Below, piece after piece: positions 18,001 to 21,000 of a stretch of 42,529 bases of DNA. The position numbers were made by a program. The stretch comes from a virus (lineage: Duplodnaviria; Heunggongvirae; Uroviricota; Caudoviricetes). Location of the stretch: IMG/VR virus record IMGVR_UViG_2718218227_000014, one strand, 5' to 3'. Positions within the stretch are counted from its first letter, which is position 1. Each line of letters opens with the position of its first letter.

Positions 18001-21000
18001 GAACTCCCGGGCAAGCCGCATGACAAACTGCATTTCCCGCGTCAGGACTTTTCCGGCGTCAGCACCTCATGCTCCAAATCCCCGGCATTCTCAATGGCTC
18101 CCATACCGCTCAGCGACAGAACCATCTCCGCCCCCGCTCCCAGGGCATCATACGACCATGTTGTAATAACGGATGCGCAAAGCGTCTCAACATCCTGAGA
18201 CTGTTCCGCATTCCACAGTGAGCGGGAAACCAGCCAGGCATTGATATCCATCCCCATCCGCAGAAAAGCAATCTGTCGTTCAGCCTCCGGCAGTTCTCCC
18301 TCTTCGGCATCAAACTTTGCCGTTCGCTGCTGAACAAACGCCAGATATTCAATTCTCTGCAGCCCGGACAGCTCACTGAGCACCACGGACTGCTTTTCAT
18401 AATTAAACGTGCCCTGTTTCAGAAACATCATGTTCTCCACCTGCAAAAAAGCCCCGGATAACCGGGGCAAATGATGAGTATCGTCCTGTTAACCTGCAGC
18501 GCTGACAGTCACCGCAGCCACAGCCACAAAATTCCCGTCAGCGGTCATGCCCACAATGCTGACGCTGCCCTGCTTCACGCCTTTCACCGTGGCCACAAGT
18601 CCGTTCAGGGTCACAGTGGCTGTCTGTGGATCTGTCGAATGCACACTGATCGCTTTGTCACTGGCTCCGTCAGGTTTTACTGTAAAGGTCAGCGTGGTGG
18701 TTGCTCCCACATTGACACTGGCGGATGCCGGTGCCACCGTCAGCCCGGTAACGCCCACAGTTTCAGTGCCCTCCTCTGCCAGATATGGACGCCCCACACC
18801 GCTGATTTTCACTGTGCGGGTCATCACGTCTTTTGAGGCAATGGTTTTACCCAGTGAGCTCAGCCAGCCGCGGAAAACATCAACAGTGCCGTTGGGATAT
18901 TTGATACGAAACGCGCAGACTTCACCGGAGTCGAACAACTGAACCAGTTTTTTCTGCCCGCTGTCACCCGGACGCCAGGCCAGCGTCGCCGAAGTATCAC
19001 CAACGGATTTCTGCCCCTGGGTTGTCGTTTTCCAGTCTGCATCTTCATCATCGAGATAAGTGTCATCTTCTGCATCAGCGGTCATTTCGCCAGGTTGCAG
19101 ATCCTTCACCATCGCAAGACGCAGCCAGTCAGTGTCCGACAAAGGGTTCGCAAACGCATCGCCGTTGCCGGTATACATCCAGAACGTCGTCCCCGCACCT
19201 TTCGTCTTTGCCAGTGGATTTGGCGTGGTCATTACCACCTCCTTAATTCGTGTACGTGATCTGGTACGTGATTTCCGCCATCGCCCAGGTGGCCATCTCA
19301 TTATCACGTTGATAGTTAAAACCGAGTGGGATCAGGGTGTCGATGAGTCCGGAAAGTGCCGATACATCATTCAGGGCCGGGAAAATGGTGCTCTCCATCC
19401 ACATATCCAGCTCTGAATCCGGTGCCTGTGCCCGGATGAAGACAGCAATATGCAGAACAGCCTGCCAGTCATCTTCATCCGTCATTTTTCCGGTGTACTG
19501 AGCATCACTCAGCCACACCGCCACGGCAGGCAGTTCCTGCGCATCAACAAATGCCGGAAGCCCGTCAAAAAACGTGGCGCTGTCTCCACACTGTTCCCGA
19601 AGGCGTGCCAGTACGACCTGGCGGATTTGTGTATGTCGGTTCATCGGGTCAGCCATAACCTCAGTTGTTGTTTCAGTGCATACCCCAGCTGTTTCGGCAT
19701 TTCCGCAGCAATGATGCGGTCGCGGGCATCTTCAAATGCCTGTGTCAGCGGTCCGGACAGCGGGATTTTCACCACATCAATGGGGTAACGATTTTTGCCA
19801 TCAATACGCCGCATCACATGCCAGCGACCATTCGCCAGTTGCTGAATAAACGCATCCCGGAAAAGATATTTACCCACCTTCAGCACACTGCCACGGTACT
19901 GCAGTTTTCCACCACGCTGGGCCAGTCTGACCCGGGCTGTCCCCAGCTTAATGGCGGGCAGATTGCCCCGGTTAACGCGGATCCTGGCCGTCATTTTTCC
20001 TGACGGACTGGCTTTAAACACCCGGACACGCTGACGAACCAGTTTCAGGGGGATCCCTTTCACCTGGTTATCTCCCGCAACGGTATTCCCGGCAACCTGC
20101 CGGGTGGCAACCGAGCCCGCTTTCTGTGCCACACGGTTTATCGCCCATGCGCTGGCCTGTGGCACCATACGGGTATCAAGGCTGTTCAGATTGCGGATGG
20201 CATTCTCAAGCCCCTTCATCCCACACCTCTTTACTCAATAAAGATCATTGGCTTACCGTTAAAGCGTTCATGCCGTGTGACCGTCCATTGTTGTCCGTCA
20301 TAAACAACGCGATCCCCGCGCCGTGGGCGGTATCCCGAAGAAAACACCACCAGAGAGACCGCAGGTCCGGACAGAGCATTCAGCTCTGCCAGTGTTTCTC
20401 CCGGGATCACAGTCATATCGACATCATTAATCGAGGCTGTCTTTCCCATCTTTCTGACCGTGATAGCATCCATACGCGCTGCCAGCCGGGAAAAGGGATC
20501 AGACATTGAGTTTTACCGGCACTTCTTCTGCACTGGTTCCGGCATCTGCCCAGACAACCCCGACCAGCGGATCAGAGCCGCTGTTAGTCAGCTGAACTTT
20601 TCCTGACTTCAGATAAACCTTCTTACCCGTTTTCATGTCATCCGTTTTCAGCTTAGGCAGCATAAACACACCTTCGGTCATGCCGTCGCCTGTTTCACCC
20701 TGTGGAATATCGGTCAGCGCCACCGCAAAAACATCGCCCACCTGCACCAGATCTCCGCTGCTGATGGCTGCACTGGCAACAATCGCCACCGTTTTTCCTT
20801 CTTCTACAAAATTCTTTGCCATAACTGTCTCCGCACAGCCCCGTTCAGGGGCTGATTTCAGGTACAAAAAAAGCCCTTACGGGCCATCAGAGTTGTTGTC
20901 TGCGACGTTTACGCCGTACATTTCACCAGACCGCGGTGATCAACTGGCGCGACACCGGCGTCAATACGCACTTTCGTTGTCACGCCATCCACACTGAAGC

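What the first reader, a model, noticed from the sequence alone, without database searches (positions are those of the whole stretch)
18042..18054. Candidate G-T -1 frameshift site with a variant heptamer
The T frame is -1 relative to G and overlaps its last codons, as in lambda's programmed G-T frameshift, but the only slippery-like motif before the G stop is GGAAAAG (18048..18054, minus strand) rather than the GGGAAAG I remember for lambda.
Basis: partly seen in the sequence, partly recalled or inferred. Interest (0 to 1): 0.4.

Follow-up and report, generated by a model that had tools for sequence, protein, structure and literature searches.

The report
Phage tail-chaperone frameshift site, GGAAAAG variant
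This is very probably the programmed -1 ribosomal frameshift site that fuses the two tail-assembly chaperone genes (G and T) of a lambda-like E. coli prophage; its GGAAAAG slip sequence differs by one base from lambda's GGGAAAG, is the commonest version in the gene family as sampled here, and has already been annotated in one phage record, so it is an ordinary but usually unannotated feature.

Summary
On the minus strand, G (18428..18042) ends CCG GAA AAG TCC TGA. The T frame is -1 and is open only from 18066. Within that 22-nt window, G_GAA_AAG (18054..18048) is the only place where a tRNA can re-pair cognately after a -1 shift.

The variant is conserved, not accidental:
- Among nine relatives of the window's clade with under 90% G identity, GAA and AAG are two of only three codon-invariant columns out of 24 amino-acid-invariant degenerate ones.
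- The residue before Glu varies (Pro, Ala, Leu, Val) but its codon always ends in G.
- In a biased census of 350 loci, about 27 of 36 clusters use G_GAA_AAG and three use lambda's heptamer.
- T has no conserved start codon, and the predicted GT fusion aligns without a gap with lambda gpGT across the junction.

GenBank record PQ299149.1 (phage LLS) already labels GGAAAAG as the "minus-one programmed translational frameshift site". RefSeq annotates T here as a separate gene.

I found no conserved downstream RNA structure. An upstream Shine-Dalgarno-like GAGGTG is only suggestive. Frameshift efficiency is unknown. In this copy the tape-measure gene is split by an IS element.

Verdict: a new member of a known kind, of modest interest.

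The parts
18489..19232 (-). Major tail tube gene (lambda V homologue with a C-terminal Big_2 Ig-like domain), immediately upstream of G.
   Evidence: Pfam PF16461 1.2e-66 and PF02368 1.3e-11. The identical RefSeq locus annotates it as 'phage tail protein'.
18451..18468 (-). Terminator-like GC hairpin followed by a T-run, between the tube gene and G. Context only.
   Evidence: GCCCCGGTTATCCGGGGC TTTTTTG. The equivalent site is annotated as a terminator in the phage Ayreon and mEp460 records.
18042..18428 (-). Gene G, the tail assembly chaperone: 128 aa from MFLK... plus the stop TGA at 18044..18042. A second in-frame ATG lies at 18431.
   Evidence: PF06894 1.8e-39 and TIGR01674 9.7e-57. RefSeq calls it 'phage tail assembly chaperone G' with 387 nt.
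18063..18068 (-). Shine-Dalgarno-like GAGGTG, 8 nt upstream of the heptamer (10 nt from the GAGG core). A candidate but unproven stimulator.
   Evidence: Duplex with the 16S rRNA 3' end is -9.2 kcal/mol, which 12% of equal-sized windows in the same gene match or beat. Only 9 of 28 G_GAA_AAG clusters have an upstream site in the best 10% of their own gene.
18067..18069 (-). TGA in the -1 (T) frame. It sets the upstream limit of the region where a -1 shift can yield GT.
   Evidence: Translation of the T frame reads ...GFGA*GADAGKVLTREMQF. The script gives an overlap window of 22 nt.
18048..18054 (-). Slip heptamer G_GAA_AAG. The 0-frame codons are GAA (Glu) and AAG (Lys); the -1 codons are GGA and AAA.
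   Evidence: Invariant in all close relatives. Synonymous sites are frozen. The preceding codon is always NNG. Annotated as a -1 PRF site in phage LLS.
17704..18048 (-). T segment read in the -1 frame after the shift: 114 aa beginning GUC = Val (VLTREMQFVMRLAREF...) and ending at TGA 17706..17704. With G residues 1-127 it predicts a 241-aa GT protein.
   Evidence: translation. PF06223 4.6e-15 and TIGR01715 1e-39. Colinear alignment with lambda gpGT, E = 4e-42. Codon-position entropy of 0.36/0.39/0.83 in the -1 frame.
15438..17732 (-). 5' part of the tape-measure gene (ATG at 17732), cut short by an IS3-family insertion. Context only.
   Evidence: PF06791 2.7e-49 and PF24622 2e-16. The intact homologue is 3066 nt. 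The IS junction is found in only 15 of 5426 complete E. coli genomes.

Best explanation
Proposed function. G_GAA_AAG (18054..18048, minus strand) is the programmed -1 ribosomal frameshift site of the lambda-type tail assembly chaperone pair G/GT.

Proposed mechanism. Most ribosomes read CCG GAA AAG TCC TGA and release gpG. A minority slip back one base while tRNA-Glu sits on GAA (P site) and tRNA-Lys on AAG (A site). tRNA-Lys re-pairs cognately with AAA. tRNA-Glu (anticodon 3'-CUU-5') re-pairs with GGA through G:C, a middle-position G.U, and A:U. Translation then continues GUC CUG ACG..., giving a 241-aa GT fusion (...TPEK-VLTREMQF...).

Role of the fusion. By homology with lambda, the G part of GT binds the tape-measure protein and the T part recruits the tube protein.

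What is shown: the anatomy, the homology, the positional equivalence to lambda's site, nucleotide-level selection on all seven bases, the absence of a conserved T start codon, and a prior expert annotation of the same heptamer.

What is inferred: that the shift happens, that both tRNAs slip together, the frequency of the shift, and the chaperone roles.
For: 1. Anatomy. [quoted passage not shown]
2. A single usable site. The -1 frame is open for only 22 nt before the G stop, and AAG->AAA is the only cognate re-pairing in it.
3. Homology of the slip position. The predicted GT aligns with lambda gpGT at 34% identity, E = 4e-42, with Lys on Lys and no gap at the junction. Lambda's heptamer G_GGA_AAG sits at that Lys.
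4. Conserved C-terminus. G homologues down to 54% identity all end (T/S)PEK(S/P/F), although the preceding ~20 residues are hypervariable; 101 of the 120 listed proteins end PEKx, the others being truncated, extended or fused forms and one with a substitution (PYKS).
5. Frozen synonymous sites. In nine clade representatives with under 90% G identity there are 24 amino-acid-invariant degenerate columns. Only three are codon-invariant, and two of those are GAA and AAG. The third base of the preceding codon is also invariant even where Pro becomes Ala.
6. Position 1 is selected. Across 167 unique G sequences with the motif, the preceding codon is CCG, GCG, CTG, TTG or GTG. That is four different amino acids, always ending in G. 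One cluster has C_GAA_AAG.
7. The variant is widespread. About 27 of 36 clusters at 80% G identity (350 loci) carry in-phase G_GAA_AAG inside the -1-open window.
8. T has no conserved start. The ATG at 18033 is ATT, CGG or CTG in relatives, and the next Met is also not universal. The residues between the slip site and that ATG are nonetheless conserved as protein: (V/A)Lxx E xx F in the nine representatives of this clade.
9. Working phages use it. Plaque-forming phages Ayreon and mEp460 carry the identical site.
10. Precedent. The phage LLS record carries a joined chaperone CDS and the feature 'minus-one programmed translational frameshift site GGAAAAG'. The Gifsy-1 record, whose G also ends CCG GAA AAG TCC TGA, calls T 'part of ... 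gpG by translational frameshifting'.
Against: - No product has been measured for this heptamer in any source I could read.
- In a purified E. coli translation system, G GAA AAG served as the 'unfavourable' sequence in which only one tRNA can slip. It gave mainly 0-frame product, unlike G GGA AAG (PMC6924986).
- In vivo, the A_AAG tetramer without a stimulator is barely above background (0.147% against 0.112%) and reaches 5.6% only with the IS3 pseudoknot (PMC4066793).
- I found no stimulator that could compensate. The downstream fold z-scores are -1.07 and +0.13. The consensus fold of nine relatives is -5.4 kcal/mol with an unfavourable covariation term. The upstream SD-like motif is absent from many clusters.
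- The census is biased by how loci were retrieved, and the clusters are not phylogenetically independent.
- In this particular prophage the tape-measure gene is disrupted, so the site is probably not in use in this copy.
Confidence: 0.85

Rival explanations
1. Only the A_AAG tetramer matters. tRNA-Lys alone slips from AAG to AAA (a tetramer or 'hexanucleotide' type shift) while tRNA-Glu does not re-pair. On this view the two leading G's are conserved for other reasons.
For: [quoted passage not shown] A_AAG is the most shift-prone tetramer in E. coli (PMC4066793). A_AAG-type sites are used productively by IS elements, for example G_CGA_AAG in IS1222 and C_CA(A) in IS3 (PMC5009743). Some relatives have G_GCA_AAA, where P-site re-pairing would be poor.
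Against: Heptamer position 1 lies outside the tetramer and the hexamer. It is nevertheless G behind four different amino acids (P, A, L, V) in 27-28 clusters, against one cluster with C. The codon before AAG is GAA, GGA or AAA in this sample rather than any other NNA codon. That is expected if P-site re-pairing with GGA, or the identity of the P-site tRNA, is selected.
Confidence: 0.25
2. T is made as a separate protein, as RefSeq annotates it. Translation would start at ATG 18033, perhaps by re-initiation after termination at the G stop 8 nt upstream, and no frameshift would be needed.
For: RefSeq and several GenBank records annotate T as a stand-alone CDS from this ATG or a later one. The ATG lies 8 nt after the TGA, a spacing compatible with termination-reinitiation.
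Against: The ATG is not conserved: it is ATT in Salmonella relatives, and CGG or CTG in others. The second Met is also not universal, and lambda has Leu there. Residues upstream of the ATG are conserved in the T frame. The frozen synonymous sites of the heptamer would be left unexplained. In lambda the physical G-T fusion is what links the tape measure to the tube protein (PMC5009743).
Confidence: 0.07
3. The motif is a chance occurrence or a decayed lambda-type site (GGGAAAG mutated to GGAAAAG) in a defective prophage, and has no function.
For: The 7-mer is not enriched in the window: 8 observed against 6.07 expected. This prophage copy has an IS element in its tape-measure gene.
Against: The same heptamer, in the same phase and position, occurs in 82 unique close relatives including plaque-forming phages. 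It also occurs in lineages whose G is only about 30-55% identical. Synonymous constraint is evident.
Confidence: 0.02
4. The frame change is made by RNA polymerase slippage on the A-run, not by the ribosome.
For: Nothing specific. The site contains a homopolymeric run (AAAA).
Against: The run is only four A's. From general knowledge, known transcriptional slippage sites need runs of roughly seven or more A or T. The conserved G at position 1 and the obligatory AAG (not AAA) third base fit tRNA re-pairing and not polymerase slippage.
Confidence: 0.01

Closest known systems
Bacteriophage lambda G/GT programmed -1 frameshift (G_GGA_AAG; Levin, Hendrix and Casjens 1993; Xu, Hendrix and Duda 2004, 2013, 2014, as cited in PMC5009743)
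   Same: Homologous G and T proteins. Same gene order between the tube and tape-measure genes. T is in the -1 frame without a conserved start of its own. The slip occurs at the homologous Lys codon, and the next residue is Val in both. There is no evident downstream RNA structure here.
   Different: Heptamer position 3 is A, not G, so the P-site codon is GAA (Glu) instead of GGA (Gly). Re-pairing in the -1 frame therefore has a middle-position G.U instead of being fully cognate. The G stop follows one codon after the slip site, against five codons in lambda. The efficiency is not measured here; lambda stays in the 0 frame about 96% of the time (PMC3296357).
Escherichia phage LLS (GenBank PQ299149.1) and phage mEp043 tail assembly chaperones
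   Same: The same heptamer GGAAAAG in the same phase near the end of a lambda-G-family gene. In LLS it is annotated as 'minus-one programmed translational frameshift site GGAAAAG' with a joined CDS.
   Different: G is only about 34% identical to the window's G. The codon before GAA is GTG (LLS) or GCG (mEp043) rather than CCG. G runs on for five more codons after the slip site.
Phage Gifsy-1 (Salmonella LT2) G/T
   Same: Same clade (G 55% identical) and the same ...ACG CCG GAA AAG TCC TGA ending. The record describes T as part of gpG 'by translational frameshifting'.
   Different: The record does not name the slip site and gives T as a separate CDS.
A_AAG tetramer or near-heptamer sites of IS3-family elements (C_CA(A) in IS3; G_CGA_AAG in IS1222) and E. 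coli dnaX (A_AAA_AAG)
   Same: tRNA-Lys slips from AAG to AAA on E. coli ribosomes. In the IS sites the P-site codon re-pairs imperfectly.
   Different: Those sites rely on strong stimulators (a pseudoknot or stem-loop, plus an SD in dnaX) (PMC4066793, PMC5009743). None is evident here.
G_GA-type heptamers (X_XX = G_GA) listed for eukaryotic RNA viruses: insect-specific flaviviruses, dianthoviruses, umbraviruses, mesoniviruses
   Same: The same departure from X_XXY_YYZ: X_XX is G_GA, so the P-site tRNA re-pairs with a GGA codon and a second-position mismatch (PMC5009743).
   Different: They involve eukaryotic ribosomes, different codons in the remaining positions of the heptamer and, from general knowledge, downstream structures.

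Membership tests
Lambda-type tail assembly chaperone G/GT with programmed -1 frameshift | Two overlapping reading frames located between the major tail tube gene and the tape-measure gene. | tested here: met
   The tube gene is at 18489..19232, G at 18042..18428, the T frame at 17704..18066 and the tape-measure start at 17732, all on the minus strand.
Lambda-type tail assembly chaperone G/GT with programmed -1 frameshift | The upstream ORF is a gpG homologue. | tested here: met
   PF06894 1.8e-39 (cut-off 27 bits, score 134.9). TIGR01674 equivalog 190.7 bits against a cut-off of 74.45.
Lambda-type tail assembly chaperone G/GT with programmed -1 frameshift | The downstream frame is a gpT homologue, lies in the -1 frame, and overlaps the 3' end of G. 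| tested here: met
   PF06223 56.2 bits (cut-off 25.9). TIGR01715 135.3 bits (cut-off 77.35). The -1 phase and a 22-nt overlap are confirmed.
Lambda-type tail assembly chaperone G/GT with programmed -1 frameshift | A canonical X_XXY_YYZ slippery heptamer in the overlap. | tested here: not met
   The heptamer is G_GAA_AAG. YYZ (A_AAG) is canonical, but X_XX is G_GA rather than three identical bases. By the strict motif definition this is a variant. The same variant is annotated as the PRF site in phage LLS.
Lambda-type tail assembly chaperone G/GT with programmed -1 frameshift | The slip site is conserved at the nucleotide level beyond what the protein sequence requires. | tested here: met
   GAA and AAG are two of only three codon-invariant columns among 24 amino-acid-invariant degenerate columns. 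The preceding third base is invariant G.
Lambda-type tail assembly chaperone G/GT with programmed -1 frameshift | T lacks an independent, conserved translation start. | tested here: met
   ATG 18033 and the next Met are replaced by non-start codons in several relatives, while the upstream T-frame residues are conserved.
Lambda-type tail assembly chaperone G/GT with programmed -1 frameshift | A GT fusion protein is produced at a low ratio to G and is required for tail assembly. | not testable with these tools
   This needs a reporter assay, a Western blot, mass spectrometry or phage genetics. I found no measurement for this heptamer in the searchable literature.
Stimulated bacterial -1 PRF cassettes (dnaX or IS3/IS911 type) | A downstream stem-loop or pseudoknot 5-9 nt after the slip site. 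| tested here: not met
   Fold z-scores are -1.07 and +0.13. The consensus fold is -5.4 kcal/mol with no supporting covariation. There is no Rfam match at the site.
Stimulated bacterial -1 PRF cassettes (dnaX or IS3/IS911 type) | An upstream Shine-Dalgarno-like element about 10 nt from the slip site. | tested here: inconclusive
   GAGGTG at 18068..18063 gives -9.2 kcal/mol, at about the 10th percentile of its own gene. Only 9 of 28 clusters have such a site, and the region is rich in Glu and Gly codons.

The most novel reading that the evidence does not exclude
G_GAA_AAG, a sequence biochemists have used as the 'unfavourable' comparison for lambda's G_GGA_AAG in a purified E. coli system, is the predominant natural slip site of the lambda gpG/gpGT family, and it works without a recognisable RNA stimulator. 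If so, one of two things follows. Either these phages need far less GT than lambda's roughly 1:30, or an unrecognised determinant raises slippage in vivo. Candidates are tolerance of a middle-position G.U by the mnm5s2U-containing tRNA-Glu in the P site, the conserved NNG E-site codon, or the acidic nascent peptide. Because both slipping tRNAs (Glu and Lys) carry the 2-thiouridine modification, the G:GT ratio of this large prophage family might be unusually sensitive to host tRNA thiolation.
Probability: 0.25. Interest if true: 0.5.

Novelty: new member of a known kind. Interest (0 to 1): 0.3.

Why it matters
Annotation. About a third of complete E. coli genomes (1849 of 5426) carry this G-T module at 95-100% identity. 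RefSeq annotates T as a free-standing gene, so the real product, a 241-aa GT fusion, is missing from protein databases. Motif-based frameshift finders restricted to X_XXY_YYZ will miss it.

Biology. Lambda, the textbook case, does not have the typical slip sequence of its own family as sampled here. The typical one is a near-cognate heptamer whose efficiency has, as far as I could find, not been reported. Measuring it would bear on how much GT tail assembly needs. It would also bear on how much P-site mispairing a bacterial -1 frameshift tolerates without a stimulator.

Beyond that, the finding is an expected feature of a lambdoid tail operon.

Tried and rejected
- Downstream stimulator. Single-sequence folds of 58 and 98 nt after the heptamer are no better than shuffles. 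RNAalifold on nine diverged relatives gives a weak structure with no supporting covariation. Rfam has nothing at the site, even with the permissive threshold. Rejected.
- Upstream SD-like stimulator. It is present in the window's clade but not general, and it is confounded by Glu/Gly-rich coding. Left as inconclusive.
- Enrichment of the motif in the window. Not significant, so it is not used as evidence.
- Genome-contig scan with an alignment. It gave only 12 loci. The scan with P0099 gave one locus. The first viral scan returned only relatives of 99% identity or more. Diversity had to come from later scans and from named phages.
- Literature. Full-text searches for GGAAAAG or G GAA AAG together with tail chaperones or frameshifting found no description of this site in phage. 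Licznar et al. 2003, which measured NNA_AAG contexts, and Xu et al. 2004, which surveyed phage slip sites, are not held. I therefore cannot say whether they list this heptamer. One search call failed on a term-length limit.
- Solved structures. There is no PDB sequence relative of the predicted GT. Structure prediction was not needed for the question.
- Natural in-frame G-T fusion proteins (P0032, P0046). Both turn out to be internal deletions that do not cleanly mark the slip junction, so they are not used as evidence.
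Full report
**What is in the sequence.** On the minus strand the window carries a lambdoid tail operon. 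It consists of a V-like tube gene (18489..19232), a terminator-like hairpin (18468..18451), gene G (18428..18042), a T reading frame, and the tape-measure gene starting at 17732. G matches Pfam PF06894 (1.8e-39) and NCBIfam TIGR01674 (9.7e-57). The T frame matches PF06223 (4.6e-15) and TIGR01715 (1e-39). The region is 100% identical to prophages of E. coli O157:H7 genomes. Near-identical copies occur in 1849 of 5426 complete E. coli genomes.

**Checking the observation.**
- G ends ...CTG ACG CCG GAA AAG TCC TGA. GGAAAAG lies at 18054..18048 and the stop at 18044..18042.
- The T frame is -1 relative to G. It contains a TGA at 18069..18067 and is open from 18066. A -1 shift can therefore yield a G-T fusion only within 22 nt.
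- Among the 0-frame codons in that window (GTG CTG ACG CCG GAA AAG TCC), only AAG can re-pair cognately (to AAA) after a -1 slip.
- The 7-mer is not enriched in the window: 8 matches against 6.07 +/- 2.33 expected. Occurrence alone means little.

**Homology of the slip position.** Joining G up to Lys127 with the -1 frame from GUC predicts a 241-aa protein. It aligns with lambda gpGT over 251 columns (34% identity, E = 4e-42). At the junction the alignment is gapless: EVLTPEK-VLTREMQFVMRLARE against EPVSAGK-VFDGELSFALKLARE. The two Lys codons are therefore homologous. The only difference within the heptamer is position 3, which is A here and G in lambda.

**Conservation in the window's own clade.**
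- All 82 unique close relatives keep CCGGAAAAG.
- G proteins down to 54% identity from E. coli, Salmonella and Citrobacter all end (T/S)PEK(S/P/F), although the ~20 residues before are hypervariable. Of the 120 listed proteins, 101 end PEKx; the remainder are mostly truncated, extended or fused forms, and one carries a substitution (PYKS).
- I took nine representatives with under 90% G identity. They have 24 amino-acid-invariant columns with degenerate codons. Twenty-one of these show synonymous variation. The only codon-invariant ones are Phe2 and the adjacent pair GAA, AAG.
- The third base of the preceding codon is G in all nine, including a Symbiopectobacterium relative where Pro (CCG) is replaced by Ala (GCG).
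- The heptamer is not translated in the -1 frame before the shift, so dual coding cannot explain this constraint.

**Conservation across the whole family.**
- A search of 1.84 billion cluster representatives returned 33 full-length G-family proteins, most with a Glu-Lys dipeptide at or near the C-terminus.
- DNA from named phages shows G_GAA_AAG in mEp043 (GCG GAA AAG), Klebsiella phage Kp4865-4 (GCG GAA AAG) and phage LLS (GTG GAA AAG). It shows G_GGA_AAG in an Stx2a phage and A_AAA_AAG in an Stx1a phage.
- In a census of 350 loci grouped at 80% G identity, about 27 of 36 clusters have in-phase G_GAA_AAG in the -1-open window. Three have G_GGA_AAG (lambda among them), one A_AAA_AAG, three G_GCA_AAA followed by a stop, one G_GAA_AAA and one C_GAA_AAG.
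- Among 167 unique G sequences with the motif, the preceding codon is CCG, GCG, CTG, TTG or GTG: four amino acids, always NNG.
- The census is biased by the retrieval method and the clusters are not independent. Even so, lambda's heptamer is clearly not the family norm.
- A crude neighbour-joining tree places G_GGA_AAG lineages outside a large G_GAA_AAG group whose GT proteins have diverged to about 50% identity. The variant is therefore old and stable.

**T is not an independent gene.**
- RefSeq and several GenBank records annotate T from ATG 18033 or a later ATG.
- That ATG is ATT, CGG or CTG in relatives. The next Met is also replaced in some relatives and in lambda.
- The residues between the slip site and the ATG are conserved as protein in the T frame. 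Codon-position entropy from the slip site onward is 0.36/0.39/0.83.
- Plaque-forming phages Ayreon and mEp460 carry the identical site.

**Prior knowledge.**
- The phage LLS record (PQ299149.1) has a joined chaperone CDS and a feature reading 'minus-one programmed translational frameshift site GGAAAAG'.
- The Gifsy-1 record, with the same CCG GAA AAG TCC TGA ending, describes T as made 'by translational frameshifting'.
- The recoding review PMC5009743 lists G_GA as a known non-canonical X_XX in several eukaryotic viruses and C_CA(A) in IS3.
- The PRFect paper includes a 'twofour' motif class, whose name suggests the XXYYYY pattern; I did not see its definition.
- The heptamer is therefore already recognised by at least some annotators. 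I found no paper describing or measuring it in phage, and I could not read Xu et al. 2004 or Licznar et al. 2003.

**Mechanism.**
- The best-supported reading is a lambda-like -1 slip with GAA in the P site and AAG in the A site.
- tRNA-Lys re-pairs cognately with AAA.
- tRNA-Glu re-pairs with GGA through a middle-position G.U. This is my inference from the anticodon.
- Selection on heptamer position 1, which lies outside the A_AAG tetramer, argues that the P-site interaction matters. The same holds for the strong preference for GAA over other NNA codons.

**Evidence against high efficiency.**
- In a purified E. coli system G GAA AAG gave mainly 0-frame product, whereas G GGA AAG slipped readily (PMC6924986).
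- A_AAG without a stimulator is near background in vivo (PMC4066793).
- I found no conserved downstream structure.
- An SD-like GAGGTG lies 8 nt upstream of the heptamer (10 nt from the GAGG core), with a duplex energy of -9.2 kcal/mol. Comparable elements are in the best 10% of their own gene in only 9 of 28 clusters, and the region is rich in Glu and Gly codons.
- The efficiency is therefore unknown and may be lower than lambda's roughly 4% (PMC3296357).

**State of this copy.** The tape-measure gene is split by an IS3-family element (IS629/IS1203 type), a junction seen in only 15 complete genomes. This prophage probably cannot build tails, although its G-T region is intact and identical to that of working relatives.

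**Verdict.** The site is an unannotated instance of a known mechanism, with a slip heptamer that is non-canonical by the textbook rule. That heptamer is typical of the family and has been annotated elsewhere. Interest is modest. The residual question is how a near-cognate heptamer without an obvious stimulator delivers enough GT.

Noticed in passing
window 5277-5393 (+), 15035-15151 (-), 32096-32212 (-): Three identical matches to the Rfam ALIL pseudoknot (RF01497, 121.5 bits each). This marks three copies of an IS3-family element (IS629/IS1203 type) in the 42.5-kb window, each with its own established -1 frameshift signal. The copy at about 14219..15432 has orfA ending CTC TGG AAA AAA TGA with orfB in the -1 frame.
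   Followed up: partly
window 14219-15432 (-) within the tape-measure gene (15438..17732 and continuing below about 14200): The IS element interrupts the tape-measure gene. The intact homologue is 3066 nt. The exact junction occurs in only 15 of 5426 complete E. coli genomes; the eight listed are O157-type or unserotyped strains. This prophage copy is probably tail-defective.
   Followed up: partly
window 18451-18468 (-): A strong terminator-like hairpin (7 GC pairs followed by TTTTTT) lies between the tube gene and G. It is annotated as a terminator in the phage Ayreon and mEp460 records. It could lower G/T/tape-measure transcription relative to the abundant tube protein.
   Followed up: no
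window 17704-18033 (-), and the same gene in RefSeq NZ_CP033605.1 and in phages Ayreon and mEp460: Public annotations give T as a free-standing CDS starting at a non-conserved ATG. The GT fusion is absent from these records although the module occurs in about a third of complete E. coli genomes.
   Followed up: yes
L109, L112, L349 (metagenomic/viral contigs); L196 (Stx1a phage); L195 (Stx2a phage): Other slip-site variants occur at the homologous place in the same gene family. G_GCA_AAA is followed immediately by TAG in the metagenomic and viral contigs. The Stx1a-converting phage has A_AAA_AAG and the Stx2a-converting phage has lambda-like G_GGA_AAG.
   Followed up: partly
proteins P0032 and P0046: Two database proteins are in-frame G-T fusions (215 and 212 aa) created by internal deletions that remove the end of G. 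They may be assembly artefacts or natural variants that make only a fused chaperone.
   Followed up: no
window 20909-23128 (-): A 739-aa ORF whose RefSeq counterpart is named 'ClpP-like prohead protease/major capsid protein fusion protein', that is, protease and capsid protein in one gene.
   Followed up: no
L194 1160-1175 (Gifsy-1): Gifsy-1 has a second in-phase T_GAA_AAG eight codons upstream of the conserved G_GAA_AAG. The T of that motif starts a -1-frame TGA, so the motif sits at the edge of the -1-open window.
   Followed up: no
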